A stretch of DNA of 64,000 bases from an uncultured Gammaproteobacteria bacterium (GCA_964547465.1 CAZJNI010000001.1:24205-88204); one strand, 5' to 3'. Shown: positions 1-33,455, counted from the first letter of the stretch. Made by a program: numbers and translations. Notes: generated by a model not told the origin, from the sequence alone.

Positions 1-1552
1 CTGAAATACTGGAAACATTATTGTAGGGAGTTAGTCCTTTATTCCTTAACTCTTGTTTAACTTTAGCCTCATCGTAAGTTTCCACTCCGGCAGGATTTGA
101 TTTATCTACCTGATAAAGATGCTCCGCGCTGGAAGAATCTGATTTCACCAGTAGTAGCGTATTTACGATATCTGCTATCTCTTCAGATTTTAACCAGGCT
201 GTTTTATTATATTGGCTTCGGGAGCCCCAATCACAATAAAACCAGGGAGAATCTTTATCATAAGCTCCTGCTTTAAGATCATCAAATCCTGATGCATTTC
301 CAGAAATGGTATCTACCCCATGTTTAGTCCAGGAAGTTACTGACCAGCCAATTTCAGAGCTGGATAAAATATATCCGCCATGGGTTGAAGAATACCAGGC
401 TTTAACAGGACTTCCTCCGGATACCATTACCCAACCCTTTGTATCATTAACAGCTGCTTCCCATTCCCCTCCTTTGGGCTCGCTTTTAAAAACCTGACAC
501 TGCTCGCTGACACAAATTGGCCCTTTGCCATTATTGGTATATGAGAGTGCATATGAGCGGGCAGCTATGGCTTGGGCTCTTAGCGCCTGTGGATGAAAGT
601 TGCTTGGCATTTCATAAATCCTTTTGACATAATCCTCAATAGAGCCAGACCAACCGGTAGTTGTTGAGATTTGGGTATTTGTATCGTAATCTTTTTTAAG
701 TTCAAAGTTGGCATAGTATGCATTTAAGATTTGTTCTGCGCTTTGTCCAGCCTTTCCCCGACCGTCTGCTCCAAATTGATTCATCCCGGTTCTGTTCGGT
801 ACCCCATAGGTGAAAAGGGCAAATCTGGGAGAGAAGCCCGGATCAATATGTCTATCATCACTGCAAGCTCCTATGGAAGCAGCAGACCTTGAGATATTTA
901 AACTGGCTAATCTTTGAGATAAGATCTCTTGCTGACGGGCGCTCAAAGCCACGATTTTGCTGGTTAAATCTGCCTGATATGCTTTGGCTTTTTTAATTTC
1001 TCCACCCAAAAACTTTGCATTTTTGTCAACATCTTTCTGGATTAATGCTAACCTAACCTGATCTTTTTCTAATTTATCTTTTTGGGTCAAAAGGTCCACT
1101 ACTTCATTAGTAATTGAGGTAATAATTGACCTGTCTTCTTTGGCAACAGTTTGACGGAAGATAAGTTCCCTGAATAAATCACCTGCATGAAATGAGGAAA
1201 GGATTACCACTAAAGGCTCTGTTAAATATGACCTTATATAATAGGCCCTGACCCTTCTTTCCAAAAGGGCTTGCTGCAGCGCTATTTTATCTTCCCTTAA
1301 ATCCAGCTCTTTTTGTTTAAGTTTAATATTGGCAGATAATGTATCAATTGTGGCTTGAATTTGGGCAAGCTGTCGCTGCAAGCCTTCCAGCTGCCCTTCC
1401 AGCGGTTTGGTTGCTTTAACTGAAAGCTCTCTTGCCTGATTTAGCGAATCAATCTGCTTTTGTAAATCTTCAATTTCATCAGCATGAACAGAATGGGTAA
1501 CAAGTAACAAGGTACAAGTGACAAGTAAGAAAATCGCAAGGAAACGGGGCAT
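1..1552 (-). CDS. SpoIID/LytB-like cell-wall protein with N-terminal signal peptide and coiled-coil region. The 3' end runs off the window start.
   Basis: Manual reverse-strand translation: ATG at 1550-1552 gives MPRFLAIFLLVTCTLLLVTHSVHA|D (signal peptide), then a heptad-rich coiled coil and a SpoIID-like C-terminal region that remains in frame to position 1. Absent from the ORF track because it is incomplete. Confidence 0.5.
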   Translation of the reverse strand, partial: MPRFLAIFLLVTCTLLLVTHSVHADEIEDLQKQIDSLNQARELSVKATKPLEGQLEGLQRQLAQIQATIDTLSANIKLKQKELDLREDKIALQQALLERRVRAYYIRSYLTEPLVVILSSFHAGDLFRELIFRQTVAKEDRSIITSITNEVVDLLTQKDKLEKDQVRLALIQKDVDKNAKFLGGEIKKAKAYQADLTSKIVALSARQQEILSQRLASLNISRSAASIGACSDDRHIDPGFSPRFALFTYGVPNRTGMNQFGADGRGKAGQSAEQILNAYYANFELKKDYDTNTQISTTTGWSGSIEDYVKRIYEMPSNFHPQALRAQAIAARSYALSYTNNGKGPICVSEQCQVFKSEPKGGEWEAAVNDTKGWVMVSGGSPVKAWYSSTHGGYILSSSEIGWSVTSWTKHGVDTISGNASGFDDLKAGAYDKDSPWFYCDWGSRSQYNKTAWLKSEEIADIVNTLLLVKSDSSSAEHLYQVDKSNPAGVETYDEAKVKQELRNKGLTPYNNVSSIS

Positions 1553-1618
1553 TATCTTAAAATTTTACCATTTCCAGCCAAAATGTGCTAAGCTAAGTTT
1601 GATGTCCAAAATTGAAGC

Positions 1619-1650
1619 TTGACAATATGTGTAGATTGCGCTATTATAAC
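1619..1650 (+). promoter_or_regulatory. sigma70-like promoter upstream of the AAA ATPase gene
   Basis: TTGACA (1619-1624), 17 nt spacer, TATTAT (1642-1647). Confidence 0.45.
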
Positions 1651-1686
1651 TATTAAGTAAGCGGAATTAACGCAATTTAGGCAAAT

Positions 1687-2820
1687 ATGTTTATACCTAG
1701 AATTTTAGAAAAAAAACTTATCAGTCAGCTAAAAACTTCTGAGCGCGGGATTGTAATCTTTGGACCAAGACAGATTGGGAAAACAACGCTGGCAAAGAGT
1801 ATTATTGCCAAACTCCACCTCAAAACATTAGAGGTAGACGGCGATACCTCTCATTACTCCGATGTATTTTCAAGCCAAGATCTGTCAAAATTAAAAGCAA
1901 CTGTCACAGGGTATGAGCTTCTATTTATAGATGAGGCTCAAAAAATAGACAGAATAGGAATAAATATCAAGCTGCTTCGCGATCATATACCCGGTTTAAA
2001 AATAATCGCCACCGGATCGTCTTCCCTGGATCTGGCAAGCAGCGTGAAAGAATCGCTGGTGGGACGAGTATGGAATTTCATACTTTATCCAATATCATTT
2101 TTGGAACTTAAGTCTATTTATAATAGATTTGAATTAGGAACACTTCTTGAGGAACAACTGCGGTTTGGTTCCTACCCTAATGTTTTTTCTCTGGAAGGCG
2201 ATCAAATAAAAAAAGAATACCTCGGTCAGGTCTCGGATGCTTATTTATATAGGGATATTCTGGAATTATCAGGTATTAAAAACTCAAGAAAAATTCGCGA
2301 TCTTCTAAAGCTACTTGCCTTCCAAGTTGGTTCCCAGGTTTCTCTCACTGAAGTGGGCAACCAACTTGATATGAGTAAGGATACTGTCTCAAGCTACATT
2401 GATCTACTGGAACAATCATTTGTGGTATTTCGTTTATCAGGGTTTAGTAGAAATTTAAGAAAAGAGGTCAGGAAAATGGATAAGATTTATTTTTATGATC
2501 TGGGTATCAGGAATGCAATAATAGGCAATTTTAATTATCTCAAAGACAGAAATGATGGTGGGCAACTCTGGGAAAACTTTTTGATGGTTGAAAGGATGAA
2601 ATTCTTAAGTTACACTGGAAAATCTACTTCAAAGTATTTTTGGAGAACTCATACTGGAGCTGAGCTTGACTTGGTAGAAGAGAGGGATGGTAAGCTGTTT
2701 GGATTTGAATTTAAGTTTAACAGTAAAAAACCAAAAACTCCTAAAACATGGCTTGAAACTTATTCAAATGCAACCTTTCAGTTTATCAATTTGGATAATT
2801 ATTTAGATTTTATTACGTAG
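1687..2820 (+). CDS. AAA+ ATPase (AAA_14/DUF4143-type)
   Basis: Walker A GPRQIGKTT, Walker B LLFIDEAQ, length and C-terminal region typical of DUF4143 ATPases. Confidence 0.7.
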   Translation: MFIPRILEKKLISQLKTSERGIVIFGPRQIGKTTLAKSIIAKLHLKTLEVDGDTSHYSDVFSSQDLSKLKATVTGYELLFIDEAQKIDRIGINIKLLRDHIPGLKIIATGSSSLDLASSVKESLVGRVWNFILYPISFLELKSIYNRFELGTLLEEQLRFGSYPNVFSLEGDQIKKEYLGQVSDAYLYRDILELSGIKNSRKIRDLLKLLAFQVGSQVSLTEVGNQLDMSKDTVSSYIDLLEQSFVVFRLSGFSRNLRKEVRKMDKIYFYDLGIRNAIIGNFNYLKDRNDGGQLWENFLMVERMKFLSYTGKSTSKYFWRTHTGAELDLVEERDGKLFGFEFKFNSKKPKTPKTWLETYSNATFQFINLDNYLDFIT

Positions 2821-3075
2821 ACCCTAAATTACAAAATGTGCTAAGCTAAAATTAATGTCCATTTTAACTAAATAACTGGTTTTAACTGACAACCAATACG
2901 ATAGGTTATCCAATATTTTTGATAATGCCGGTCAAGTGATATTCGGGGCAGTAGTGCTTTCACCTTTAATACTAACCTTTAACCAGATAAACTGGGTGGT
3001 GGAACTATGTGGTATAATAACTACCATAAGCAGCTGGATGATAAGTATTAGGCTAGCTAAAAAGGAGTCTGATTT

Positions 3076-3180
3076 ATGACATTTAATATAGTTTTTCTTT
3101 TAGCAATGATAGTTATACTTCTCTTTGGTATTATAGTGTTGATCCTAGCTCACCCAGGTCCTAGAAAAGAAAGACGCTAA
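3076..3180 (+). CDS. 34-aa hydrophobic small peptide (MTFNIVFLLAMIVILLFGIIVLILAHPGPRKERR)
   Basis: AAGGAG Shine-Dalgarno 7 nt upstream of ATG; single transmembrane-like segment. Below the ORF-track size cutoff. Confidence 0.25.
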   Translation: MTFNIVFLLAMIVILLFGIIVLILAHPGPRKERR

Positions 3181-3271
3181 CTTCACCCCTAATCCCTAGA
3201 CCCTAAATTACAAAATGTGGTAAGCCACAACTATCTCTCTTTTAGAGATTAATTGTGGTAAGCTAATTTTA

Positions 3272-4420
3272 ATGTCCAATTTTTTTTCCATTCTAGTAAC
3301 TACTCCAATTATCTTTTTTTTATATTTTAATCTCTTTCTATCTCCTGTATTTGCAGATAATTTATCCGATTGTCCCGCTTTTAGGAACGAGCCGTCTCAA
3401 TTATTTAATGATCCCTCAAAAACCCCGAAAGCTAAGTTTTTTGTAACACCAAGTGATAAAGATACTAAATATACTTCCTGGAAGATGCAGTTTGAATCTA
3501 GTGTTCCGCAAAATGTTGGTCCGGCTACTTTAGACACCAGTACAGGTGAGGTCTGGCGGGAAATAATTAGTGGTATGTTCACAAAGTATGATCTATTAAG
3601 TCCTGGACCTCATACTTTTATGCTAATTGGAATCACAGATAAAAACGAAGAAATCCGTCAATGTAGAGGACATTACAGTGTTACTGAATCAGATACCCAA
3701 TGTACTGTTAAACTTTCTGAAACAACAGGGATAACCCCTACGAGCAATCTTGAAGTATCGGGAGAAAATCTGACTAAAGATGAACGGTTTGGAGTTTTTA
3801 TAGATGGTGAAATAATAAAAGGTTCTCATTTATTAGATTTTGTCAGCACCTCTAACTTCTCCGGTGTTTCAATACCTAATAAATATTTATCCCCAAACAC
3901 ATCACATATTGTTAGTATTCGAAAGCAAGATAGCCATATACCTCTATCTGCAAGCAGACCTCTTTTTCCAATTGATTATGGTTCAGACCTTTGTAAAGTA
4001 ACTTTCAGTGTGGGTACACCCTCTGCACCGGGCAGTGTGGTTACTCCGGGAACTGCTCCGGTTCCAGGTACACCAGGGCTAACTGGTCCACCAACCACAT
4101 CTGGAGGGATACCATGTGATACAACAGATCCGGAAAATCCTGGTTTTCAAACAGCCATTGGGTGTGTTCATACCTCACCTGCGGCATTTATTAAGGATTT
4201 TCTTTCTTTTATAATCGGGATTTCCGGGGGGTTGGCGTTTTTGATGATGTTACTCGGAGCATTTCAGATGTTAACTTCTGCCGGAAACCCGGAGACTTTG
4301 CAAGCAGGGCGGGATAGATTCCAAAGTGCAATAATTGGACTGCTGATGGTTATTTTTGCAGTATTATTACTCCAGATAATCGGTTTTGATATCTTAAGAA
4401 TACCTGGATTTGAAAGGTAA
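3272..4420 (+). CDS. Secreted protein: signal peptide, about 250-aa ectodomain, Pro/Thr/Gly linker, and a C-terminal TrbC/VirB2-like pilin domain
   Basis: C-terminus has two hydrophobic helices separated by a small polar loop (LTSAGNPETLQAGRDRFQSAIIGLL), shared with the five downstream paralogs. Confidence 0.45.
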   Translation: MSNFFSILVTTPIIFFLYFNLFLSPVFADNLSDCPAFRNEPSQLFNDPSKTPKAKFFVTPSDKDTKYTSWKMQFESSVPQNVGPATLDTSTGEVWREIISGMFTKYDLLSPGPHTFMLIGITDKNEEIRQCRGHYSVTESDTQCTVKLSETTGITPTSNLEVSGENLTKDERFGVFIDGEIIKGSHLLDFVSTSNFSGVSIPNKYLSPNTSHIVSIRKQDSHIPLSASRPLFPIDYGSDLCKVTFSVGTPSAPGSVVTPGTAPVPGTPGLTGPPTTSGGIPCDTTDPENPGFQTAIGCVHTSPAAFIKDFLSFIIGISGGLAFLMMLLGAFQMLTSAGNPETLQAGRDRFQSAIIGLLMVIFAVLLLQIIGFDILRIPGFER

Positions 4421-4465
4421 AGTGATTTAAGATTTAAGAAATTAGATTTAAGATTAAGAATAGTA

Positions 4466-4852
4466 ATGAAGAATGGCAAAATACAGTCTTTTACAGATTT
4501 GAAAGTTTGGCAAGAAGGGCATATTCTTGTAATTATGGTTTATAAAATAACAAAAAAATTTCCCCAGGAAGAACTATATTCTTTGGTAGACCAAATGAGA
4601 AGAGCAACTTCTTCTATAACAGCTAATATTTCTGAAGGTTTTGGAAGACATTCTTATAAGGAAAAACTGCAATTTTATTATCTATCTCAAGGATCTTTAA
4701 CTGAACTTAAAAATTTCATACTTATTGCAAAAGATGTAGGCTATTTGACTACTAAAGATTTTAATGCATTAGCAGACCAAGCAAATTTAACTCATCAGAT
4801 TTTACAAGGATTTATCAAAAGCACAAAAACATTCATAAATCATAAATCATGA
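4466..4852 (+). CDS. Four-helix-bundle protein (23S rRNA intervening-sequence protein family)
   Basis: DLKVWQ...ITANISEGFGR...signature of the TIGR02436-like family. Confidence 0.65.
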   Translation: MKNGKIQSFTDLKVWQEGHILVIMVYKITKKFPQEELYSLVDQMRRATSSITANISEGFGRHSYKEKLQFYYLSQGSLTELKNFILIAKDVGYLTTKDFNALADQANLTHQILQGFIKSTKTFINHKS

Positions 4853-5181
4853 ATCTTAAATCTATTTTAGCTCTAAAACTACCCGGCGGGAATGAGATAC
4901 CGCTACCAAAAGAACTAACAGATAAAGGCTTATTAGATGTGGCCAGTGTTATTTCCGGTCTTTTAAATATTGCTTTCTATATTGCCATCTTTATGGCATT
5001 TTATTGGGTTATCTGGGCTGCATTTCAGTATATTTTAGCCTCTGGTAAAAAAGAAGACCTGGCAAAAGCCAGATCCAGAATTACCTGGGCGCTAATCGGA
5101 CTGGCTGTAGTTTTTGCAGCATACCTAATTGCAACATACGCATCTGAAATATTCCCATCTCAAACAGGAGTACCATTTTAA
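4849..5181 (+). CDS. TrbC/VirB2-like pilin paralog
   Basis: Transmembrane helix, loop AFQYILASGKKEDLAKARSRITWALIGL, second transmembrane helix; paralogous to neighbours. Confidence 0.45.
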   Translation: MNLKSILALKLPGGNEIPLPKELTDKGLLDVASVISGLLNIAFYIAIFMAFYWVIWAAFQYILASGKKEDLAKARSRITWALIGLAVVFAAYLIATYASEIFPSQTGVPF

Positions 5182-5564
5182 TGAATTTCAAATTTCCAAT
5201 TTCAAATTTCAAATGTCAAATTACTTTGTTACTTGTTACAAGTTATCTGTTACTTGTTACTCCTGCTCATGCCCAGGTTCCCATCAAGGACTATTTTGGC
5301 TTTGGAGATATTAAATCCTTGGGTCAGGGTACCACCAGAATTGTTATACCAATGTTTGAAATTGCTGCTTTTTTGGTTATTTTTTACTTTCTACTTGGTG
5401 CATTCAGGTTTTTGCGGGCAGGAGGAAATAAGGAAGAGGCAGAGGGTGGCAGACAAATGATTAATCATGCCATAATTGGGTTTATACTACTTATGTTTGT
5501 ATATTTACTATTTCAATTTATTCCGGATTTCTTTAATCTGCCGGGAATAGATATAATAAGATAA
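5181..5564 (+). CDS. TrbC/VirB2-like pilin paralog with signal peptide LLLVTPAHA|Q
   Basis: Same C-terminal topology (LGAFRFLRAGGNKEEAEGGRQMINHAIIGF). The first 41 nt are identical to the next gene. Confidence 0.45.
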   Translation: MNFKFPISNFKCQITLLLVTSYLLLVTPAHAQVPIKDYFGFGDIKSLGQGTTRIVIPMFEIAAFLVIFYFLLGAFRFLRAGGNKEEAEGGRQMINHAIIGFILLMFVYLLFQFIPDFFNLPGIDIIR

Positions 5565-6293
5565 ATGAATTTCAAATTTCCAATTTCAAATTTCAAATGT
5601 CAAATCTTGAAGCTATCATGCCTTGTATTACTACTTTTCACTTTTCACTTTTTACTTTTTACTTTTCTTGTCCAGTCAGCATTTGCTGCTAGTTGTCCAG
5701 CTGCAGGAACGAAAGTACCTGGAGACCAACAATTAACAGGCGGAAATAATACAAACCACGAGTATACTGGCAGAGACTGTAGTGCAATTCGTAATTCATC
5801 CGGCAGCATAGCCGGCCCCAGCCAATTCGGGAGAACCGAAAATTATAGATGTCTTGGTGGGTGTAAATATGAAGTAAATTATTGTACCCCCGGCGGGTGT
5901 GAGGCTATATATCCTCAAGAAGAATGCTCTTCAGCCCCTGCTTCTTGTAACAATCCTAATACAGGAGCATTATCACCAATAAGTCAGGTTTTTGGGAAAA
6001 TAATCCCACCCCAACAAATTATAAACTTCGGGTTTGGGGCAAAAGGAATTAGTACACTTTTATCCAACATTATTACCCTGTTTTATTCCATTGCCATAAT
6101 AGTTTTGATTTTTATGCTCCTCTGGGGAGCATGGGACTGGATGACATCAGAAGGTGATAAGGAAAAGTTAAGTTCTGCCCAAAAGAAAATTGTTAATGCC
6201 ATTATTGGAATTATGCTTTTTGCCGTAGCATTTGCCATAATCCAGGTTCTTGGAACTTTTACCGGATTTACCTTTTTTAAACGTGGCCCTTGA
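5565..6293 (+). CDS. TrbC/VirB2-like pilin paralog with a Cys-rich (9 Cys) N-terminal ectodomain
   Basis: WGAWDWMTSEGDKEKLSSAQKKIVNAIIG motif between two transmembrane helices; identical 5' end to the 5181 gene. Confidence 0.45.
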   Translation: MNFKFPISNFKCQILKLSCLVLLLFTFHFLLFTFLVQSAFAASCPAAGTKVPGDQQLTGGNNTNHEYTGRDCSAIRNSSGSIAGPSQFGRTENYRCLGGCKYEVNYCTPGGCEAIYPQEECSSAPASCNNPNTGALSPISQVFGKIIPPQQIINFGFGAKGISTLLSNIITLFYSIAIIVLIFMLLWGAWDWMTSEGDKEKLSSAQKKIVNAIIGIMLFAVAFAIIQVLGTFTGFTFFKRGP

Positions 6294-6706
6294 CAAGAGC
6301 TTTTGTCTATGAATATGATAAATTACTAATGAAAAAATTGGTTGCAGTATTATCTCCTTTATCCTATCTTTTTTTCACACCTTTAGTCTTTGCCGCAGAT
6401 CCAATTATAGTTAAAGCTCCTGAAGGAGGCTATTCAGATTTGGGACTATTTGTCACCAATATTTTAACTTTAGCTTTTGGCTTAGCTATTTTGGTAGTTT
6501 TGGTAATGCTGGTTTGGGGAGCATTTGAGTGGATTACATCAGGCGGAGATAAAGAAGCTGTTGGAAAAGCCAGGAACAGGATTATAAATGCCTTAATCGG
6601 CTTGGCAGTTTTAGCTATAGCCTATGCCCTAACCAGGGTAGCAGGACAATTCCTGGGCTTTGATATTACAAAAGGCATCACAATCCCAACCCCACCACCT
6701 CAATAA
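6290..6706 (+). CDS. TrbC/VirB2-like pilin paralog
   Basis: WGAFEWITSGGDKEAVGKARNRIINALIGL motif. The likely true start is the internal MKKLVAVL signal peptide. Confidence 0.45.
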   Translation: MTRAFVYEYDKLLMKKLVAVLSPLSYLFFTPLVFAADPIIVKAPEGGYSDLGLFVTNILTLAFGLAILVVLVMLVWGAFEWITSGGDKEAVGKARNRIINALIGLAVLAIAYALTRVAGQFLGFDITKGITIPTPPPQ

Positions 6707-6754
6707 TTGATTTATAGATTGATCTTTCATCTTTATTCATGTTAAGTTTTAAAT

Positions 6755-7171
6755 ATGGGGAAACGTATTATGTATTATGTATTGTGTATTGTGGGGTTTT
6801 TATTCATAATACATGCTACCAACTACTTACTACCAACTGTTCATGCTGCTAATTGTGATCCTAATCTGGTAGGTCCCCGTGTACCCGGAGATTGTCCTGC
6901 AGGATTGCAACAAATCGAAGATCTTTTTAAACAAATAATCACCGTTGCAACCGGGCTGGGATTTATTGCGCTTTTAGTGCTAATAGTTTTTGCCGGCTTT
7001 AAATATTTAATGTCAGGCGGAGAACAGAAAGCAGTCCAAGCTGCCCATCAAACCGTAACCTGGGCGCTTTTGGGAATAGTCTTTATGGCAATTGCCTGGT
7101 TAATATTACAACTGATACATGCATTTACTGGTGTTGATGTAACAACATTCACTTTTGGCCTTCCTAAATAG
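6755..7171 (+). CDS. TrbC/VirB2-like pilin paralog
   Basis: FAGFKYLMSGGEQKAVQAAHQTVTWALLGI motif. Signal peptide PTVHA|A. Shares a VPGD motif with the 5565 gene. Confidence 0.45.
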   Translation: MGKRIMYYVLCIVGFLFIIHATNYLLPTVHAANCDPNLVGPRVPGDCPAGLQQIEDLFKQIITVATGLGFIALLVLIVFAGFKYLMSGGEQKAVQAAHQTVTWALLGIVFMAIAWLILQLIHAFTGVDVTTFTFGLPK

Positions 7172-7175
7172 AAGT

Positions 7176-7204
7176 TTGACAATACGCATATAATCACATA
7201 TAAT
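7176..7204 (+). promoter_or_regulatory. sigma70-like promoter for the fic gene
   Basis: TTGACA (7176-7181), 17 nt spacer, TATAAT (7199-7204). Confidence 0.5.
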
Positions 7205-7220
7205 CCAATATAATTAGATT

Positions 7221-8276
7221 ATGCGAACTAAATTTGAGAAAAGATTAGCTCAAGTGTCAGCTGAAATTTTAACAAAGATCGCCCGGATTGATGAGTTAAA
7301 AGGCCGGTGGTCTGCCGGAGTAAATTTAAATCCCTATCTTTTGGGAAGACTTAAAAAATCAGTCTTAATTACCTCAACCGGAGCATCTACCAGAATTGAA
7401 GGATCCAGACTTTCTGATAAGGATGTAGAAAAATTAATGCAAGGTATTGCCATTCAAAAATTTGCTGATCGTGATATAGGAGAAGTCCAAGGATATTACG
7501 AACTGCTGGAGAATGTCTTTGGATCATGGGATTCTATCAGATTCTCTGAAAATACTATTAAACATTTTCACCAGCAGCTTTTAAAATACGTGGAGAAGGA
7601 TAAGCTACACCGCGGAGAATATAAAAAAGGGGAGAATAAAGTCCAAATGGTAGATGCAAATGGAAAAATCATTGGAACTGTTTTTGATACAACCCCTGCC
7701 TACCTTACACCCAAACAGATGCAAGAACTGGTGGAATGGACCAAAAATGCATTTGATGATAAAAAATATCATCCTTTACTTATTACGGGGAATTTTTTAG
7801 TGGAGTTTTTGAGTATTCATCCTTTTGAGGATGGAAATGGCAGACTTTCGCGGATTTTAACTAACTTTTTACTTCTTAAGATGGGCTATTTATATATGCC
7901 TTATATTTCCCATGAGAAGTTAATTGAAGAAAAAAAGGGAGGCTATTATCTTGCTTTAAGAAAAAGTCAAAAAACTTTTAAAAAAAGGGGGGATATTACT
8001 GATTGGCTTAATTTCTTTTTGAATATTATATTGGCTCAATCAGAGCAAGCAATTAATCTTGTCTCCTCGGAAAATCTTGAGAGTATCCTTTCAAACAAAC
8101 AGTTGGTTGTATGGAGGTATTTGCAAAGCGTTTCAGAGGCAACACCACGTAAGATAGCCAAAGTTACCAATACTGCCCGGCCGACAGTTTATCAGATACT
8201 TACTAAACTGCTTAAACTTAAAAAAATAGAACGCCTGGGTTTGGGGAGAAGCAGCCGCTACCGGAAGCTTTCTTAA
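7221..8276 (+). CDS. fic: Fic/Doc family protein (AMPylase-type) with C-terminal winged-helix
   Basis: Canonical Fic motif HPFEDGNGRLSR. Confidence 0.8.
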   Translation: MRTKFEKRLAQVSAEILTKIARIDELKGRWSAGVNLNPYLLGRLKKSVLITSTGASTRIEGSRLSDKDVEKLMQGIAIQKFADRDIGEVQGYYELLENVFGSWDSIRFSENTIKHFHQQLLKYVEKDKLHRGEYKKGENKVQMVDANGKIIGTVFDTTPAYLTPKQMQELVEWTKNAFDDKKYHPLLITGNFLVEFLSIHPFEDGNGRLSRILTNFLLLKMGYLYMPYISHEKLIEEKKGGYYLALRKSQKTFKKRGDITDWLNFFLNIILAQSEQAINLVSSENLESILSNKQLVVWRYLQSVSEATPRKIAKVTNTARPTVYQILTKLLKLKKIERLGLGRSSRYRKLS

Positions 8277-8315
8277 AACTTGCAAAAAGGTATTGGTTTG
8301 TTTTACTGTTAGAGT

Positions 8316-10214
8316 ATGTTTAAGAAATTTATAATGTACAATTTACAATGTACAATTAAGCTTATTTTACTGCTTTTTACTTTTTACTTTTTACATTTTA
8401 CATTTTACATTACTCCAGTTCATGCCCAATCTGCCAGCCCCAGTGCAAACCAGTTACCAGTTACCAGTTACCAGTTACCTACTACTGTCTCCCCTACTTC
8501 TCCGCTTTTTACTGATCTTTTATTAAATAATATGTTTCACAGCTTTTCCTGTTTAGCCATTGGCTCATCTTTCATTGGCCAGCCTTGTTTAACTTATAAA
8601 ATCACCCAAAATGCCCAGGGGGCAATCCAATCCATTCCAGTTCTCTCTCAAACTAATCTCTCCGGAGGAGCGCTGGGGGCTACCACCTCCCTCATAGGCA
8701 TGCTCTACGTAAATCCGCCTGTCAGGACAGCAGATTATTTAGCATCAGTTGGTCAAGGATTAGGAATTGTTAAAGAAGCCCATGCCCAGGTTGGAGGGTC
8801 AGGAGCAGGAGTATTGAGCCCGATCCTATCCCTTTGGCAAGTCTCCAGAAATATTTCTTATCTGATTATGATTATAATTTTTGTAATTATTGGCTTAATG
8901 GTGATGTTCAGACAAAGGATAAATCCCCAAACAGTCATCACCGCCCAGGCAGCGCTTCCGGGTTTGGTGATTGGTCTAATCCTAATAACTTTTTCCTACT
9001 TTTTAGCAGGATTGGTAGCAGATACTGCATTTGTAGGAACAAATTTGGTTGGGGCTTATTTTTCCGCAGTCAGGGGGGAAACAAATACCCCTCAAAATTT
9101 AGTGCAGGATTTAGATACCCTAGATCCTAATACCGGTCGCAAACCAAACCTGATCAGTATTTTTAGCAAATTTGCAGTTGTTGCTAATAAAGAGAAAGTT
9201 ACTGATGTAATAAATTCTTTCTGGGATGATATTAATAATGATGCACAACGCCTTTTGGTAACACTGGCAACCTTTGTTACCGTACAGGTAGCTGGTCAGG
9301 CTACAGAATTTCTTAAACTTGTCCCTAGATTCGGCGAAGGTATAATTGCAACGATACAAGCTGTGGTCGCTCTTAATACTATTACAGGGCCTATAGGGCC
9401 CCAGGCCGTAGTAGGTGCTCTTTTTGCTTTAGTTGTTACAGCCATATTATTATATGCCATGTTTAAACTGTTAATGCGCTTGGTCAATGTTTATTTAACC
9501 ATCATATTTTTAACAATAACGGCTCCTTTCCAATTCTTAGCAGCTGCTTTACCGGGAAGACAGGGAATTGCTACCAATTGGATATTAAGCATGCTTGGAA
9601 ATATCTTGGCATTCCCGGCTGTTTTAGCTGTTTTTTATTTTGTGGCTTTTATTTTAGGTCCTGCAAATAGTCCACACCCATTTATAGTATCTGATTCAGG
9701 TGGAACAACAACTATAGTCAATAATGGTTTAGTCTCCACAGTGAAAGCTGATGGCCCTGTTGAGATTACAGGGCCTAATACTTTTCCTCTTTTTGGGGGA
9801 ATGGGTGTAGATTTTATTAAACTACTTTTGGCTTTCGGGGCATTGGTTGCAACCCCAGCAATCCCGGATATAATTGCCAGAACTGTTGGCAGTGCAAGCC
9901 AGGCAGGGCAATTGATCGGCCAGGAAATCGGTGGAAGCATTGCCGCCGGCAGAGGCTACGGCGGGCAATTACAGCAGGGGGTAGGGGCAGCCAGTGGAAA
10001 TCTTGCCAGAGCCAGAGCATTGTTTAGCACACCAGGACATAGAGTTAATGAATATGGTGAGGTTGTAGAAACATATGCACCTGGTACAGGTGGTCAAATG
10101 GGATCTATTGCTAAAAGCGGGAATATATTCGCTCGTACTATTAGAAGAATCAGTGGCGGACGTATCGGAGGAGTCCCCGAAGCAGAAAAATTCAAAAGTA
10201 CATCTACATCATAG
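8316..10214 (+). CDS. Polytopic membrane protein, VirB6/TrbL-like
   Basis: Signal peptide (TPVHA|Q), at least 6 transmembrane segments, Gly/Ala/Ser-rich C-terminal tail; positioned after the pilin array. Confidence 0.45.
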   Translation: MFKKFIMYNLQCTIKLILLLFTFYFLHFTFYITPVHAQSASPSANQLPVTSYQLPTTVSPTSPLFTDLLLNNMFHSFSCLAIGSSFIGQPCLTYKITQNAQGAIQSIPVLSQTNLSGGALGATTSLIGMLYVNPPVRTADYLASVGQGLGIVKEAHAQVGGSGAGVLSPILSLWQVSRNISYLIMIIIFVIIGLMVMFRQRINPQTVITAQAALPGLVIGLILITFSYFLAGLVADTAFVGTNLVGAYFSAVRGETNTPQNLVQDLDTLDPNTGRKPNLISIFSKFAVVANKEKVTDVINSFWDDINNDAQRLLVTLATFVTVQVAGQATEFLKLVPRFGEGIIATIQAVVALNTITGPIGPQAVVGALFALVVTAILLYAMFKLLMRLVNVYLTIIFLTITAPFQFLAAALPGRQGIATNWILSMLGNILAFPAVLAVFYFVAFILGPANSPHPFIVSDSGGTTTIVNNGLVSTVKADGPVEITGPNTFPLFGGMGVDFIKLLLAFGALVATPAIPDIIARTVGSASQAGQLIGQEIGGSIAAGRGYGGQLQQGVGAASGNLARARALFSTPGHRVNEYGEVVETYAPGTGGQMGSIAKSGNIFARTIRRISGGRIGGVPEAEKFKSTSTS

Positions 10215-13200
10215 TACCATCTTATTAAATATCCAGTCAGACCACGTGCTGCCATCGTAGAATTTTACAGTCTCATCCTTCTTTGCTACTTCAAGCTTAC
10301 CCTTATCATTATTATAATACAATTCTCCTTTTTTAATTATTTTTAAATAGTAATAAGGCTCTAGAAGGAATTTGTAGTAAGGTTCTTCAGATGGATAAAT
10401 CTCCGCTCCCCCTCCAGGTCCATGATCCAACAACCATTCCACATAAGCATCCCAAAACATTCTGGCTATATGTCTTGAAGAACCAGTATTCCTGTCTGTA
10501 TTTATAGCCGGATTATATCTGCCGTCCGGTAAAAAGACATCTGTCTTTCTCAAATCCAACGCCCCTTGCGAATTTCTATTCTCCGAGTACATTGTCCTGA
10601 TTTGCTTTAATGTATCCCATTGCCTACCAAAAGTCTCTATTATCAGATAAAAAGCATCATTTTCAAGTTTCGGATCAGATCTAGATTGATGCAATAGAGT
10701 TCTAATAGCCACTAATTTATCAGAATTATTAAGTGGTTTAAAAAATAAACCTTCATGAGGAAGCCCTGTCTTAGGATCAGTACCCCCAACTAGTAAAAAA
10801 TATAATTGATTGCCGGCATCCATCAAATTAATAAATTTAGTAATACCAAACTGACCAAGTTGTCTTTGGCCGCTTATTTTACCAATTTGATCGTCCATCA
10901 TTGAAACAGCTCCTGTTACTCCTTTACGCCCTAAGTTACCAGCCATGGTATCAGCATACATTGGTGTAGCACCCAGTGCGGCAGCAAATCTTCTGTCAAA
11001 TCTTTTTTGCATTTTGGCAACTAAGTTTTCAATCATCAAAGTGAACCTGCTGTCTCCTCCCTTATCTTCAGTGTAATATCCTGCCTGCATATACTCCGGG
11101 TTCCCATCTGCAGGCAAGAATCTCTGGCTCAAGGCTTTTTTTACCTCAACCCAACTCAATAATGATTCTTCAACTGCAGCATCAAAAACAATATATTCTA
11201 TACCCATTTGATCACCGGGAAATGATCTAACATTACTAAGAGTGGGGTCTAAAGTAAGAAGTAAGCCAGCCAAACTATCTGCATCCTCAAATCGTAACCT
11301 TCCCTCCCTTATTTGTCTTGCCTGTTCAAATACATATTTAGGTACAAGAGTATGAGTATTATTATTTTGATAGGCCCAATAAGTATGAGTAGTATGCAAA
11401 GCTAAGTAACTGCCAACAGCTTTATCAAAATCCAAATGAACCTCTTCCACGTCTTCTACAACCATTTTGCCTGTTTGTGGATCAATTTCCCCTCTGGGTT
11501 GTCTTAACATCATAGGTTGTACTCTTCCTAAAGCCTCAACAGTTATCTCTTTCTTTTTTACATCAAAAGCTGTTGCTTTAAAGTCAGTAAAGTTAAATTT
11601 TGCTTCAAATCCCTTAGTCGCAATTTGCTCAACAGCCATATCCCTAGCCTTCTCAACCATAGCATCCCTGAAAACAGCTCTAAAGTTAGGATATCTGAAG
11701 TTACCTTTGGCATCTTTTGCCTGCACAAATAACTTCAAATCATCTCTGTCCCAAATATTGGAATCGTCTGCATATCTCATCTTTGTCCAATTTACAACTG
11801 CCTGAACAGCTTTTATAGCCAAATGGGTAGGAATTTGGTCAGCATAATTTTCTTTTTCTTTGTCACTTAAACCTTGATAAATTCTCAGCTCAGCTGGATC
11901 TAAAGTATCAACTCTTTTACCCTTTACTATCTCATTCAAAATCCAGCCTACATGTTGCTCCCTTGTCCATTTATTCTTCCTTTCGTCAGGTGATAGTTCA
12001 GAATCCTTATTTTCTCTAACCTTCAGATATTCTAAAATAAAAGGATTTTTATGTACAAAATATATCCCTCCACCTCTGATTGCTTCTTCCCGCATAGCAA
12101 TTTGCATTTGCATAGCAAGTGCAAAGCTGGATTTTGAACTCTCATATGTTTCTTTATACAATTTTCTATCCTCATCACTAATTGTTTTTAAGTCTACTAA
12201 TTTATCAATTAGTACCTCATTCCTCTTTAAAATAACTTCTCCTTGTCTAACTCGCCCGCGGAGGTCAATAATTGCTTGCTGAATTCTACCTAAAGCAACA
12301 GATTCTCTTAAACCTGACGGCAACTGATCTTCAGACAATTGCGTCAATATTTGATAATTTCTAAACATTTGATAATTTCTTAAATGAGCATCTCCTTTAA
12401 TAAAACCGTTCTCATCTCTACCCATTCCTTCATATAAGCTCCTGAATGCTTCTTCAGACTGATGGATACCTATCCGCTCCTGGTTCTCTCTTAAAAGTCT
12501 TCTTGACTCAATATATAAATTCTGATCTTCCTCACTTAGAACTTGTAAATTATTTCCGTTTCTTCTCAATTGAGTTTCAATGGCCTCTAAAAGACGCGCT
12601 CTCTCGTAACGAAACTCCGGATTTGAATATGCAGCCTCATCGCGGTTATCATAATCTTTTAGCACAACACCCATCCCTCTTTCTATAATCTTTCCTTCAA
12701 TCCACATCCTGAAATAATTTTGTATATCCGAACGCCTACCTAATTGTCCTCTTGAGCCTTGGGCATTATAGGCAAGTTCAACCAACGGATCATAATCTAG
12801 TGTAAATTCATATTCTCCGGTTTCTCCTCTTCTTGACCTAAGAGCTCTAACATGCCTTTGGGGGCCTTCATGCAAAGCCAATGCCATCTCACCTTGTTTG
12901 GCTCCATCTTTATTATAATTCTCGATGTTATAGGCGATATGCCAGAAAAAGCCTTCTCCTTCAAATTCCTGTCTTAATTCTTCTGCAAATTCTAGAGTCA
13001 TTTTGTCCGGTCCTTCAGGCCAATTCTTTTGTTGTATTGCCAAATCAGTTGCGTTCCTACTCATCACTTTTTTAAAATTTATCAAATTTTGTATTAACTC
13101 ATTAGGATCATAACCTAGGGCATGAGTAAAAAGCATCTGCAGAAAAGATTCCTTGGCTATAATAAATTGGGCAGGAGTTTTAGCGTTAACTGTATAATAA

Positions 13201-14402: not shown

Positions 14403-14521
14403 GATAGTTTGTAGTTGGTAGTTAGTAGTATGTAGTTTGCAACAAACTACGAACTCGAAAACTCTATGGCTAATTCCAGTGTAGAGCTTCGGTTAACTAA
14501 CTGTCAACTTTCCTTTCTGCG

Positions 14522-16635: not shown

Positions 16636-16687
16636 ATTATTTATATAATAGCTAACTTAGCTAACTTTGTCAAGTGCAAGTCTGGGA

Positions 16688-19187: not shown

Positions 19188-20594
19188 TCAAGCAGCTTTT
19201 ACTAATTCTTGAGTTTCTTCTTTTTCTTCAGGATTATCTGCCTCAGCTGAGGTACCACAACCAAAAACATAACCGCATCCACATGAAGGTGTATAATCTC
19301 CCGCAGCTCTATTTGATTCATCTTCAAATCTTAAATTACAATCAGGACAATGGTAATGCCCATCCTTAGGCATTCCACAATCTCCACATACCCCACCCAA
19401 ACCCTCCCTACCTAAAGATATCCTTCCTAAACCTAAACTTATCCCTCTGAGTGATGCCATTGAACTTGAACCAGCACATCCTGCTCTGGTCCTTAAAAAA
19501 GCTGCAGCCATCATAAACTTATCCTGATCTCTAATTTGTTCTGAAACCCAACTGTTTTGAGGAGACAACCTATCAAAATATCTATTTGGTGTTTTTTGCA
19601 AATAATCAACTGTGATATTTAGTATTGTTTCCTCTATTATGCTGGCTATTTCAGCTTGGATAATTGAGTGATTTAAATTACTAAACTTTCTCCAAAGATT
19701 ATTTGTTAATTCTTTAATATGCTCTTCTATCTCCTTATTAAAATTCAGAAGCTGATTCATTCTTTGAATATCTGCTCTAGTTTGAGCTACTGATCTTATC
19801 TCTATAGTGCCGTCTTCCTGAACTAATCTAAAGTCAGCATCTCCTCTGATAGAGACAATTTTATCTAACACATATTCTGCAGGATTTTTTAAAGCTTGGG
19901 AGTAAGAAAAAAGAGCTGGGTTCCCAACAATATTAGATACTCTTTCTAACTGAGTCTGACCTGTTAATAAACCTTCAGATACACCAAGACTTTCTGAGAG
20001 TTCTTTTGATTGTCTTTCATCTAAATCTGAAACTAAAGTTAATCCATGCAACTCACCCTGCTGATCAGTCCAGAAAACCATGGTTTGGTTGTTTTTATAA
20101 GTAATTCCTGTTCCATCATTTTTGAAAAACCCGGAATGACCAAATGGACTATTAATAACAGCTATGCTATCAGCATTATTAGAAAGATATCCATCAACTT
20201 TTATTGAGGCCTGTTTAACCCCTCCTTGTCTCTCCTGATCAGTTATCCCATCTACCACCAATATTCCATTATTTCCCACCATTCTTCTGACCCCATTCAC
20301 TCTTTCTATTCTATTTTTATGCGGCAAAACAGTCTTTGACTGGATATATTCCAAAATATAACTTCTGATGTTGGTCTCCAGCTCTCCTAATGAAACTGCC
20401 CAAGCCTCTTCATTGTTTTTTCCTTCTCTTAGATTTTGATTGTAATTTTTAAATAAGCGTTTTATTTCTAAAGGCAGTATAAAACCTGTTCCTTGTAATC
20501 GAGATTGTTCACCTAGGTAAGGAGTTATTTGTACCTCTTGAGGCCTTTCAGTAGGGAAAATTCGGTTGTTTAATGGAAGTACTTCTAATGACAT
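19188..20594 (-). CDS. Hypothetical protein with C-terminal Cys-rich zinc-ribbon
   Basis: CGDCGMPKDGHYHCPDCN...CGCGYVFGCG; AGGAG Shine-Dalgarno 4 nt upstream of the ATG. Confidence 0.5.
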   Translation of the reverse strand: MSLEVLPLNNRIFPTERPQEVQITPYLGEQSRLQGTGFILPLEIKRLFKNYNQNLREGKNNEEAWAVSLGELETNIRSYILEYIQSKTVLPHKNRIERVNGVRRMVGNNGILVVDGITDQERQGGVKQASIKVDGYLSNNADSIAVINSPFGHSGFFKNDGTGITYKNNQTMVFWTDQQGELHGLTLVSDLDERQSKELSESLGVSEGLLTGQTQLERVSNIVGNPALFSYSQALKNPAEYVLDKIVSIRGDADFRLVQEDGTIEIRSVAQTRADIQRMNQLLNFNKEIEEHIKELTNNLWRKFSNLNHSIIQAEIASIIEETILNITVDYLQKTPNRYFDRLSPQNSWVSEQIRDQDKFMMAAAFLRTRAGCAGSSSMASLRGISLGLGRISLGREGLGGVCGDCGMPKDGHYHCPDCNLRFEDESNRAAGDYTPSCGCGYVFGCGTSAEADNPEEKEETQELVKAA

Positions 20595-28449: not shown

Positions 28450-28452
28450 TTT

Positions 28453-28483
28453 CAGTCGTCAGTCGTCAGTCGTCAGTCGTCAG
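28453..28483. repeat. Tandem heptamer (CAGTCGT) x4.4 immediately upstream of the dnaN ATG
   Basis: Direct reading of the sequence. Confidence 0.9.
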
Positions 28484-33430: not shown

Positions 33431-33455
33431 AATTTGGGAAGAAACAACAAAAACC

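What the first reader, a model, noticed from the sequence alone, without database searches (positions are those of the whole stretch)
1497..8478. Signal peptides and gene 5' ends built from tandem heptanucleotide repeats
Repeated 7-nt units of 3-6 copies recur at gene starts: GTAACAA-like x5 at 1497-1531 (encodes LLVTCTLLLVT); (T)TACTTGTTAC at 5222-5252; TTTTCAC/TTTTTAC x5 at 5633-5670; TNTACAA x3 at 8336-8356; TTTTTAC/ATTTTAC x6 at 8374-8413; CAGTTAC x4 at 8451-8478. Several of the resulting signal peptides end in the same cleavage context ((P/S)(A/V)HA|(Q/A/D)). Because 7 is not a multiple of 3, a one-unit slippage would shift the reading frame. That would create slipped-strand phase variation of secreted or T4SS proteins.
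Basis: seen in the sequence. Interest (0 to 1): 0.65.

Follow-up and report, generated by a model that had tools for sequence, protein, structure and literature searches.

The report
Heptanucleotide repeats encoding signal peptides

Summary
Period 7 is the only tandem-repeat period in excess: 16 strict arrays against 0 for most other periods and 0 in shuffles.

It is also wider than reported. There are about 26 to 30 arrays across the window. In 1.06 Mb from 59 related Daviesbacteria loci there are 198 period-7 arrays, against 3 of period 6 and 4 of period 8.

Arrays cluster at gene starts. 52% lie in the first 60 codons and 35% are intergenic, nearly all of those beside a start codon. Gene bodies are 8-fold depleted.

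In ORFs the arrays are read in frame as 7-residue-periodic n-regions, h-regions and mature N-termini of T4SS pilins, a conserved membrane protein and a SpoIID-like hydrolase.

Phase variation is not supported:
- No copy-number difference was seen among contigs of four related species.
- 42 of 42 orthologues are in frame.
- Arrays are short, at 4 to 6 units.
- Arrays also sit in or beside rnpA, tsaD, yidC and dnaN.

Over longer times the arrays do turn over. Perfect arrays cluster at 30 to 31 nt, change in concert and are shared between genes.

Best reading: a lineage-specific 7-nt slippage bias whose products are tolerated at gene starts and used there.

The parts
1497..1528 (-). Array (TTGTTAC on the coding strand) x4.6. 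It encodes the h-region LLVTCTLLLVT of the SpoIID-domain protein (ORF 2..1552, minus strand).
   Evidence: TRF; translation; Pfam SpoIID
4424..4459 (+). Intergenic array GATTTAA x5.3. It starts 3 nt after the stop of pilin gene 3272..4420 and ends 6 nt before the start of 4466..4852.
   Evidence: TRF
4833..4862 (+). Array TCATAAA x4.3 spanning the junction of the 23S_rRNA_IVP gene's 3' end and the start of pilin gene 4849..5181.
   Evidence: TRF
5184..5222 (+). n-region array AATTTCA x5.6, beginning at codon 2 of pilin gene 5181..5564 (NFKFPISNFKCQI). The 41 nt from the ATG are identical to those of gene 5565.
5221..5261 (+). h-region array TTACTTG x5.7 (ITLLLVTSYLLLVT), followed by PAHA|Q.
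5568..5605 (+). n-region array AATTTCA x5.4 of pilin-domain gene 5565..6293.
5633..5667 (+). h-region array ACTTTTC/TTTTTAC x5.0 (LLFTFHFLLFTFL).
6765..6790 (+). Array GTATTAT x3.7 at codons 4-12 of pilin gene 6755..7171 (RIMYYVLCI).
8326..8357 (+). n-region array AATTTAC/AATGTAC x4.6 (period 7 and 14) of the 632-aa membrane protein 8316..10214 (KFIMYNLQCTI).
8375..8411 (+). h-region array TTTTTAC/ATTTTAC x5.3 (LFTFYFLHFTFYI), followed by TPVHA|Q.
8449..8479 (+). Perfect array ACCAGTT x4.4 (31 nt) encoding the mature N-terminus NQLPVTSYQLP.
14405..14439 (-). Array starting 2 nt upstream of the start codon of the 1397-aa gene 10209..14402 (minus strand).
28452..28483 (-). Perfect array (CGACTGA on the mRNA strand) x4.6, ending 2 nt before the dnaN start codon. 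It pairs with a degenerate inverted copy at 28484-28520 to form a hairpin.
20818..20925 (.). Inverted pair of arrays (CTCAAAA / AGATTTG) forming a roughly 100-nt hairpin with periodic bulges, between divergent genes.
   Evidence: z -3.6 on plus, -7.0 on minus
32135..32161 (+). Weak array AAACTTA x3.9 inside rnpA (KLETQNLKL).
33403..33435 (+). Array AATTTAA x4.7 encoding the C-terminal tail of YidC (GIKNLKFKI*).
34996..35028 (+). Array AAATTTC x4.7 inside the Wzy_C O-antigen-ligase-like gene (KFQISNFKFLI).
35352..35380 (+). Perfect array AAAGTTC x4.1 inside the Polysacc_synt flippase gene (KVQSSKFKVQ).
43807..43836 (-). Array inside tsaD (ENLESRIKNQG).
3272..7171 (+). Cluster of six T4SS_pilin (PF18895) genes: 3272, 4849, 5181, 5565, 6329 and 6755. 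Three of them (5181, 5565, 6755) have array-built 5' ends.
   Evidence: Pfam; lag-7 scan

Best explanation
The arrays are the visible products of a lineage-specific microsatellite process that strongly favours 7-nt units. The process is presumably replication slippage seeded by 2-3 nt of microhomology spaced 7 nt apart. It operates throughout the genomes of a Daviesbacteria subclade.

Selection removes the arrays from constrained gene bodies. What remains sits around gene starts: leaders, the first ~60 codons and a few tails and loops.

Inside ORFs an array is read through all three frames of its unit and gives a 7-residue-periodic peptide.
- T-rich, G-poor, stop-free units (TTTTTAC, TTGTTAC, CTATACC, TTACTAC) give hydrophobic h-regions.
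- A-rich units (AATTTAC, AAAATTC, AAAAGTC) give K/N/Q-rich n-regions.
- Units such as CTACCAA or ACCAGTT give P/T/Y/Q-rich mature N-termini.

Only net changes of three units (21 nt, 7 aa) keep the frame. Coding arrays are therefore quantised, with a sharp mode at 4 units plus 2-3 nt (30-31 nt, about 10 residues). That is the length of an h-region.

Over species-level time the arrays turn over. They change in concert, are replaced by other units at the same position, and are copied between genes as a two-array signal-peptide cassette. On strain-level time they are stable and always in frame.

Shown: the period bias, the positions, in-frame translation, the quantised length, strain-level invariance, and cross-species homogeneity and turnover.

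Inferred: slippage as the generating mechanism, selection on h-region length, and gene conversion between genes.
For: Period bias:
- In the window, 16 arrays of period 7 against 0 for most other periods and 0 in shuffles.
- In 1.06 Mb from the window plus 59 related loci: 198 arrays of period 7, 51 of period 14 and 7 of period 21, against 3 of period 6, 4 of period 8, 12 of period 9 and 25 of period 12.
- Array density falls from 2.8 to 1.8 to 0.4 per 10 kb as relatedness drops. Other periods stay near 1.1 per 10 kb and GC content is unchanged.

Position:
- 52% of arrays lie in the first 60 codons (3.0x enrichment).
- 35% are intergenic (4.7x enrichment). 88 of those 90 flank a gene start.
- Enrichment is 0.56x in the last 30 codons and 0.12x in gene bodies.

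Translation:
- 134 arrays in gene 5' ends are read as n-, h- or mature-N-terminal segments.
- The same peptides recur across genes and species: LLFTFYF, LYPIPYTLYP, LLVTSYLLLVT, FTIYNLQFTIK, KIQNSKFKIQNY, TNYQLPTT.
- Coding-strand units contain 6% G.

Quantisation:
- The length histogram of perfect period-7 runs has a trough at 22-29 nt and a peak at 30-31 nt.
- 20 of 37 coding runs of 26 nt or more are 30-31 nt long.
- Runs of 54-64 nt occur only in intergenic DNA.

Turnover and concerted evolution:
- The SpoIID-like orthologues carry four different array types at the same h-region position, and some carry none.
- Three species keep a 30/30 perfect CTATACC array, although third codon positions in the adjacent conserved region are only 49-59% identical.
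- In the L049 cassette every n-array unit is AGGGTAC instead of AATTTAC.
- Window genes 5181 and 5565 share an identical 41-nt imperfect array.

Stability:
- No array indel was found in any strain-level comparison.
- 42 of 42 orthologues are in frame.

Housekeeping genes carry arrays too.

Against: - Tolerance alone does not explain why 3' ends and convergent spacers are not enriched.
- Tolerance alone also does not explain why several arrays are perfect in species whose synonymous sites are near saturation. Both points leave room for a function at the DNA or RNA level, or for frequent slippage.
- A jump from 1 to 4 units in one step is not what simple stepwise slippage predicts.
- Gene calls were crude: longest ORF with the most upstream start. 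Some arrays scored as '5' coding' may really lie in leaders.
- No signal-peptide predictor was available. I judged signal peptides from charge, hydrophobicity and AXA-like sites only.
- No read-level data and no close strain of the window's own species were available.
Confidence: 0.6

Rival explanations
1. Slipped-strand phase variation. Gain or loss of one or two 7-nt units switches pilins and other T4SS surface proteins OFF and ON. This would generate surface diversity in an epibiotic bacterium.
For: - The unit length is not a multiple of 3, and arrays sit in the leader-peptide region of surface proteins. Neisseria opa CTCTT repeats do the same (PMC3745409).
- Some arrays are perfect.
- Homogeneity of arrays across diverged species implies that slippage does occur over evolutionary time.
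Against: - No copy-number polymorphism was seen in any array across 7, 9, 8 and 2 contigs of four related species. One of those sets had 47 SNP columns and other indels.
- In ten strain-level protein clusters, the full-length members of each cluster that start at the same codon are equally long. The one exception, cluster 10 (585 vs 593 aa), differs only by an N-terminal extension.
- The one truncated cluster member I checked (P0127) is cut by a contig end.
- 42 of 42 orthologues are ON.
- Tracts are 4 to 6 units and 76-96% matched in this window. In the opa precedent, switching is about 1e-3 per cell per generation. From my own knowledge, opa tracts are also much longer and variable.
- The same arrays occur in rnpA, tsaD, the yidC tail and the dnaN leader.
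Confidence: 0.12
2. The arrays are functional nucleic-acid elements at mRNA 5' ends. They could be repeated binding sites for a translational regulator or S1/CSP-like protein, shared sequence tags for co-regulation of T4SS genes, or arms of regulatory hairpins when they occur as inverted pairs. On this view translation into signal peptides is secondary.
For: - Arrays concentrate from about -100 to +150 around start codons rather than in all unconstrained DNA.
- Several start or end within 0-25 nt of a start codon, for example 2 nt before the dnaN start codon and 2 nt before the start of the 1397-aa gene.
- Inverted array pairs fold far better than shuffles, with z from -3.4 to -7.
- Perfect arrays are conserved at synonymous sites.
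- TAACTGA heptamer repeats just upstream of start codons in Beggiatoaceae have been proposed as regulator sites (PMC4679880).
Against: - 69 different canonical units occur among 131 coding arrays, so there is no single recognisable motif.
- Orthologous positions carry unrelated units or no array at all.
- Coding arrays show frame-dependent length quantisation, which is what translation constraint predicts.
- No candidate binding factor was identified.
Confidence: 0.15
3. The arrays are a by-product of codon or amino-acid bias in hydrophobic leaders, a chance pattern, or an assembly artefact.
For: Signal peptides are low-complexity and T-rich in an AT-rich genome (GC 0.34-0.42).
Against: - Lag-6 and lag-8 periodicity is absent from the same 5' ends, and shuffles give 0 arrays.
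- Arrays also occur in intergenic DNA and in hydrophilic segments.
- Identical arrays appear in independent assemblies from NCBI, JGI, ENA and Logan.
Confidence: 0.02

Closest known systems
Over-representation of heptameric simple sequence repeats in some bacteria: cyanobacterial STRR heptanucleotides, and GGGAATC/GGGGAYT arrays in Xanthomonas and Nostoc (PMC4692102, citing Mrazek et al. 2007 and Mazel et al. 1990)
   Same: - Period 7 dominates the tandem-repeat spectrum of the genome.
- Many loci are involved.
- Some arrays occur as inverted pairs.
- Arrays vary in length and sequence between related species.
- The cause is unknown; a polymerase-footprint slippage hypothesis has been proposed.
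   Different: - The known cases are mostly intergenic and often G-rich.
- Here the units are A/T/C-rich with 6% G on the coding strand.
- There are dozens of different units.
- More than half of the arrays lie inside the first 60 codons and are translated.
- The lineage is a CPR/Patescibacteria clade. Three full-text searches found no report of this for CPR.
Neisseria opa genes: CTCTT pentamer repeats in the leader-peptide coding sequence (PMC3745409)
   Same: A tandem repeat whose unit is not a multiple of 3 lies in, and encodes, the hydrophobic leader of a surface protein.
   Different: - opa tracts change number at about 1e-3 per generation, and ON and OFF alleles coexist.
- Here the tracts are 4 to 6 units, invariant between strains and always in frame.
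- Here they are part of a genome-wide repeat bias that includes housekeeping genes.
TAACTGA direct repeats of marine Beggiatoaceae, cyanobacteria and some Bacteroidetes (PMC4679880)
   Same: Heptamer direct repeats of 2 to 6 copies lie mostly within a few nucleotides upstream of start codons, including those of essential genes.
   Different: - That system uses a single conserved unit. Here there are many units.
- Here a large share of arrays is inside ORFs.
- The array upstream of dnaN (CGACTGA) shares only ACTGA with that unit.
Borg tandem repeats that create amino-acid repeats in extracellular and membrane proteins (PMC9879509)
   Same: - Perfect nucleotide tandem repeats occur in both intergenic DNA and ORFs.
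- They are enriched in extracellular and membrane proteins.
- They are flanked by partial repeats.
- They evolve fast and create new low-complexity protein segments.
   Different: - Borg repeats in ORFs always have unit lengths divisible by three and vary within populations.
- Here the unit is 7 nt. The frame is kept only because arrays change by three units. No within-species variation was seen.

Membership tests
SSR-mediated phase-variable (contingency) locus | Tandem repeat with a unit not divisible by 3 inside an ORF or promoter | tested here: met
   Period-7 arrays lie in the first ~55 codons of five ORFs.
SSR-mediated phase-variable (contingency) locus | Repeat number differs between strains or within a population | tested here: not met
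   There were 0 array indels in contig sets of four related species and in ten 90% protein clusters. The window's own population could not be tested, because its proteins are not on record and the P0001 cluster has one member.
SSR-mediated phase-variable (contingency) locus | Both in-frame (ON) and out-of-frame (OFF) alleles are found among genomes | tested here: not met
   42 of 42 orthologues of the 632-aa gene have the hydrophobic N-terminus in frame. The truncated cluster member P0127 is cut by a contig end.
SSR-mediated phase-variable (contingency) locus | Long, perfect tracts restricted to contingency (surface or restriction) genes | tested here: not met
   Tracts are 3.7-5.7 units and 76-100% matched. 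Arrays are also in rnpA, tsaD, the yidC tail and the dnaN leader.
Genome-wide heptameric SSR over-representation (STRR-like) | Period 7 in clear excess over neighbouring periods across many loci | tested here: met
   198 arrays of period 7 against 3 of period 6 and 4 of period 8 in 1.06 Mb.
Genome-wide heptameric SSR over-representation (STRR-like) | The canonical STRR units (CCCCAGT, TTGGTCA, CAACAGT; recalled from my own knowledge) or G-rich GGGAATC-type units | tested here: not met
   The unit census has ACCCTAT, ACTTGTT, ACTTTTT, ACATTTT and AAAATTC on top, with 6% G.
Genome-wide heptameric SSR over-representation (STRR-like) | Predominantly intergenic location | tested here: not met
   35% are intergenic and 52% lie in the first 60 codons, with crude ORF calls.
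Sec-type cleavable signal peptide (signal peptidase I) | Positively charged n-region, a hydrophobic h-region of about 7-15 residues, and small residues at -3 and -1 before the cleavage site | tested here: inconclusive
   The sequences fit by eye and by hydropathy. Examples are MNFKFPISNFKCQ-ITLLLVTSYLLLVT-PAHA|Q and KD10 values of 2.5-3.3. No SignalP-type predictor or experiment was available.
T4SS pilin (Pfam PF18895, VirB2-like) | Match to the family HMM above the gathering threshold | tested here: met
   Six ORFs scored 30.1-39.5 bits against a cut-off of 26.6. PrgI and VirB4-like genes are at 20918 and 22803.
Borg-type amino-acid tandem repeats | The repeat unit in ORFs is divisible by three | tested here: not met
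   The unit is 7 nt. The Borg rule is taken from PMC9879509.
TAACTGA repeat system | The unit TAACTGA | tested here: not met
   TAACTGA is absent from the unit lists shown (top 40 coding units, top 25 intergenic units). The nearest is CGACTGA upstream of dnaN.

The most novel reading that the evidence does not exclude
A Daviesbacteria subclade has a dedicated way of making and remaking export signals. A modular two-array cassette has the form (A-rich heptamer)n - short linker - (T-rich heptamer)n - xVHA|Q. On this reading the cassette is generated by 7-nt slippage, kept homogeneous by concerted evolution, exchanged between non-homologous T4SS surface-protein genes, and resized only in 21-nt steps. 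Such arrays would be an evolvability device for N-terminal targeting sequences. They might also be slow contingency loci or shared 5' regulatory tags, rather than passive microsatellites.
Probability: 0.25. Interest if true: 0.75.

Novelty: new variant of a known kind. Interest (0 to 1): 0.55.

Why it matters
This is a clear natural case in which a mutational bias writes functional protein segments. Here that bias is a strong preference for 7-nt tandem duplication.

Because 7 is not a multiple of 3, each array is read in all three frames. It gives a 7-residue-periodic peptide, and only 21-nt steps survive.

That offers a simple route for de novo birth and resizing of signal peptides and membrane-proximal linkers in CPR bacteria. 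The T4SS and pilin arrays of these bacteria are thought to be central to their epibiotic lifestyle (10.1101/2025.01.22.634366).

It also extends the poorly understood heptameric-SSR phenomenon to Patescibacteria. The sharp phylogenetic gradient (2.8 to 0.4 arrays per 10 kb) could be used to look for the responsible replication or repair factor.

On the practical side:
- These arrays break short-read assemblies.
- They mislead start-codon calling.
- They can look like phase-variable loci when they are not.

Tried and rejected
1. Exact look-ups of two window proteins (632 aa and 242 aa) found nothing on record. The P0001 cluster has one member. So no strain of the window's own species could be compared, and I ran no further search on an exact-flank pattern.

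2. Truncated members of the 90% clusters looked like possible OFF alleles. The one I checked (P0127) is cut by a contig end.

3. Gene-length differences between contigs L009-L017 (135/132/128/125 aa, 1523/1529 aa, 330/310 aa) looked like 7-aa steps. The alignments show them to be start-call differences, plus a 9-nt and a 72-nt non-repeat indel.

4. My first motif for locating orthologue N-termini was too strict and gave only 28 loci. I replaced it.

5. Pairwise identity within arrays is not register-aligned for the TTGTTAC group. I use only the counts of mismatches to a perfect array, not those means.

6. I considered -1 frameshift slippery sites (X XXY YYZ) and rejected them. TTTTTAC does not fit the pattern.

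7. I considered telomerase-like or templated addition and rejected it, because there are dozens of units.

8. I considered a general lack of mismatch repair and rejected it as the sole cause, because periods 1 to 6 show no excess.

9. I looked for no sortase motif.

10. The difference in copy-number distribution between coding and intergenic arrays (a gap at 5.7-7.5 copies in ORFs) is suggestive but rests on few arrays. I do not lean on it.

Full report
**Observation.** I read 1-9500 of the window and ran Tandem Repeats Finder on all 64 kb.

- Five more lie in the same stretch: 4424-4459, 4833-4862, 5184-5222, 5568-5605 and 6765-6790.
- With one fixed scoring rule, the window holds 16 arrays of period 7, 5 of period 14 and one each of periods 9, 10, 18 and 21.
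- It holds none for any other period from 1 to 21, and none in shuffled sequence.

The periodicity is therefore real and specific to 7 nt.

**Setting.**

- Homologues of the 632-aa protein 8316..10214 are almost all from Candidatus Daviesbacteria (Microgenomates, CPR). The identical protein comes from a 131.5-kb NCBI contig.
- ORFs 3272, 4849, 5181, 5565, 6329 and 6755 are T4SS_pilin PF18895 proteins.
- 2..1552(-) is a SpoIID-domain protein.
- 4466 is a 23S_rRNA_IVP protein, and 7221 is Fic.
- PrgI-like and VirB4-like genes follow at 20918 and 22803.
- dnaN, rnpA, yidC and jag lie at 27-34 kb.

This matches the published picture of CPR T4SS clusters, which have VirB2-like pilin arrays and lie near the replication origin (10.1101/2025.01.22.634366).

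**The arrays are window-wide, not a signal-peptide speciality.** About 26 to 30 period-7 or period-14 arrays lie between 1.5 and 44 kb.

- Some are in leaders. The perfect TCAGTCG x4.6 array ends 2 nt before the dnaN start codon. Another array ends 2 nt before the start of the 1397-aa gene.
- Some are in spacers as inverted pairs that fold into long, periodically bulged hairpins, with z from -3.4 to -7.
- Some are in C-terminal tails (YidC, Jag).
- Some are inside rnpA, tsaD, a Wzy_C protein, a flippase and a DUF4012 protein.
- Among 17 window ORFs with a hydrophobic N-terminus, only five have a strongly 7-periodic 5' end (at least 21 of 28 lag-7 matches). None of them shows lag-6 or lag-8 periodicity.
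- Those five are 2..1552(-), 5181, 5565, 6755 and 8316.

**The pattern is clade-wide.**

- N-termini of the 120 best homologues show 7-residue-periodic motifs such as IYNLQFTIK, RIKNLEFRIK, MSNFKSNLNFKK and NYQLPVNSYQLP.
- I fetched 59 related loci from one-genome-per-species contigs. Together with the window they make 1.06 Mb.
- TRF finds 198 arrays of period 7, 51 of period 14 and 7 of period 21. It finds 3 of period 6, 4 of period 8, 12 of period 9 and 25 of period 12.
- Density falls from 2.8 to 1.8 to 0.4 arrays per 10 kb as the marker protein's identity drops from at least 50%, to 40-49%, to below 40%. Other periods stay near 1.1 per 10 kb and GC content is unchanged.

The bias is a trait of a Daviesbacteria subclade.

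**Position.** I used crude ORF calls (longest ORF, most upstream start).

| Region | Share of arrays | Share of DNA | Enrichment |
|---|---|---|---|
| First 60 codons | 52% | 17.6% | 3.0x |
| Intergenic | 35% | 7.5% | 4.7x |
| Last 30 codons | 4.7% | 8.4% | 0.56x |
| Gene bodies | 7.8% | 66.6% | 0.12x |

Of the 90 intergenic arrays, 88 flank at least one gene start. Only one lies in a convergent spacer, although such spacers hold about 7% of intergenic length.

**What the coding arrays encode.**

- A 7-nt unit read three times gives seven codons, so the peptide has period 7.
- T-rich, stop-free units give h-regions: TTTTTAC gives FLLFTFY, TTGTTAC gives LLLVTCY, CTATACC gives LYPIPYT and TTACTAC gives LLLTTYY.
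- A-rich units give n-regions: AATTTAC gives NLQFTIY, AAAATTC gives KIQNSKF and AAAAGTC gives KSQKSKV.
- Units such as CTACCAA give the P/T/Y/Q-rich start of the mature protein.
- Coding-strand units contain only 6% G, as expected if TAG and TGA must be avoided in all three frames.
- The same peptides recur in pilins, in the 632-aa family and in the SpoIID-like protein of many species.

**A shared cassette.**

- The 5' ends of the 632-aa gene (window, L024) and of pilin genes in other species (L009, L060, L049) align as one module.
- The module is (AATTTAC)n - AATTAAAC - (TTTTTAC)n - TCCnGTTCATGCC|CAA.
- In L049 every unit of the first array is AGGGTAC, which is a concerted change.
- In the window, genes 5181 and 5565 share an identical 41 nt from the ATG, including the same two imperfections. 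The mature proteins differ.
- Leaders are therefore copied between genes as well as inherited.

**Test of phase variation.** I could not find any strain of the window's own species, so I tested relatives.

1. P0002 species. Six Logan contigs from different runs are 100% identical to the NCBI contig over 6.9 kb, including three arrays in the gene's 5' end.
2. P0108 species. There are nine contigs from JGI, ENA and NCBI samples.
 - The 11.7 kb downstream has 47 variable columns and no indel.
 - Upstream, the perfect arrays CTTTTTA x4.6, AATTTAC x4.6 and TTTTTAC x6.0, and the near-perfect CTTTTTA x4.7, are invariant.
 - In the same region a 72-nt and a 9-nt non-repeat indel and a recombined pilin domain do vary.
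3. P0023 species (8 contigs) and P0133 species (2 shown of 24 read). All are identical.
4. Ten protein clusters at 90% identity. Full-length members of each cluster are equally long and differ in the N-terminus only by point changes.
 - The exception is cluster 10 (585 vs 593 aa), which differs by an N-terminal extension upstream of an otherwise identical N-terminus.
 - The one truncated member I checked is cut by a contig end.
5. Across species, 42 of 42 orthologues have the hydrophobic N-terminus in frame, and 34 of them have a TRF-detectable array.

In addition, tracts are short (4 to 6 units) and arrays occur in essential genes. In the opa precedent, CTCTT repeats in the leader switch at about 1e-3 per generation (PMC3745409). 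I conclude that an ON/OFF switch is not supported. Low-frequency slippage in reads remains untested.

**Evidence that arrays are nevertheless dynamic.**

- The length histogram of perfect period-7 runs is bimodal. It decays to about 21 nt, has a trough at 22-29 nt and peaks at 30-31 nt (22 runs).
- In ORFs, 20 of 37 runs of at least 26 nt are 30-31 nt long, that is four units plus 2-3 nt.
- The runs of 54-64 nt are all intergenic.
- This is what is expected if only net 21-nt changes survive in ORFs and about 10 residues suits an h-region.
- In the SpoIID-like protein the mature N-terminus DEIEDLQKQID... is conserved, but its third codon positions are only 49-59% identical between species.
- Even so, the CTATACC h-region array is 30/30 perfect in three species and 2-3 mismatches from perfect in three more.
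- Other subclades carry TTACTAC, TTGTTAC or TTTTTAC-type arrays at the same place, and some orthologues have none.
- Period-14 substructure (L026, L042, L053, window 8326) shows duplication of two-unit blocks.
- These facts point to repeated collapse, re-expansion or conversion over species-level time.

**Comparison with what is known.**

- Heptameric SSRs are reported as over-represented in many bacterial genomes. Cyanobacteria and Xanthomonas are the studied cases, and a polymerase-footprint hypothesis has been proposed (PMC4692102).
- TAACTGA heptamer repeats sit just upstream of start codons in Beggiatoaceae (PMC4679880).
- Borg tandem repeats create amino-acid repeats in surface proteins, but their units are divisible by three (PMC9879509).
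- Three full-text searches found no report of heptamer arrays in CPR, or of heptamer-encoded signal peptides.

I therefore class this as a new variant of a known kind.

**Verdict.**

The mechanistic interpretation as phase variation is not supported.
- The best-supported reading (confidence about 0.6) is a lineage-specific 7-nt slippage bias. Its products are purged from gene bodies and retained around gene starts. In secreted T4SS-cluster proteins they are translated in frame as the building blocks of signal peptides.
- A nucleic-acid-level role at 5' ends (about 0.15) and slow phase variation (about 0.12) remain open.

Noticed in passing
window 20818-20925; 15911-15978; 28452-28520; 20645-20729: Intergenic heptamer arrays often come as an array plus its inverted copy. 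They fold into long hairpins with a bulge about every 7 nt (z -3.4 to -7). One hairpin's 3' arm ends 2 nt before the dnaN start codon.
   Followed up: partly
window 20606-20817 (minus strand): A cobalamin riboswitch (RF00174, 61.8 bits) lies upstream of ORF 19188..20594, which has no Pfam match. Two inverted heptamer arrays (20645-20675 and 20687-20729) sit inside the riboswitch match and pair with each other.
   Followed up: partly
window 27307-33986: An origin-proximal gene set is present: dnaN, rnpA, yidC and jag/KhpB. Cumulative GC skew reaches its minimum near 28-30 kb. The T4SS cluster therefore lies next to the probable replication origin, as reported for CPR. ORF 29126..30484 was not checked for DnaA.
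   Followed up: partly
window 5181-5221 and 5565-5605: The first 41 nt of two adjacent pilin-domain genes are identical, including the same two imperfections in the array. The rest of the genes differ. This suggests gene conversion or duplication of the leader only.
   Followed up: partly
L009-L014 (P0108 species), about 900 nt upstream of the 582-aa gene: A 72-nt presence/absence polymorphism removes the whole signal peptide of one pilin gene in three of six contigs. The N-terminal domain of the first pilin gene is completely different between L009 and L010. So there is strain-level variation in these clusters, but not at the repeats.
   Followed up: partly
L051 1724-1813; L048 7645-7712; L042 1-55: Much longer heptamer arrays occur in relatives, but only outside ORFs: AGATTAA x13.1 (whose perfect run ends at the 632-aa orthologue's start codon), AATTAGA x9.7, and AATTAGC x7.9 at a contig end.
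   Followed up: no
window 44000-64000: No period-7 array occurs in the last 20 kb of the window, although GC content is similar. The uneven distribution is unexplained.
   Followed up: no
L009 6382-6403 and 6783-6822; L010 1942-1963 and 2343-2382: 9-nt arrays (AATTAACCT) flank the 23S_rRNA_IVP gene inside the pilin cluster of the P0108 species. They are one of the few recurrent tandem repeats that is not a heptamer.
   Followed up: no
window 1687-2820, 14599-15756, 16021-19111: Several DUF4143/AAA_14 ATPase genes are interspersed with the T4SS cluster, as in the related loci. A run of small ORFs lies at 16-19 kb; their orthologues in related loci carry PIN-domain annotations, but I did not scan them here.
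   Followed up: no
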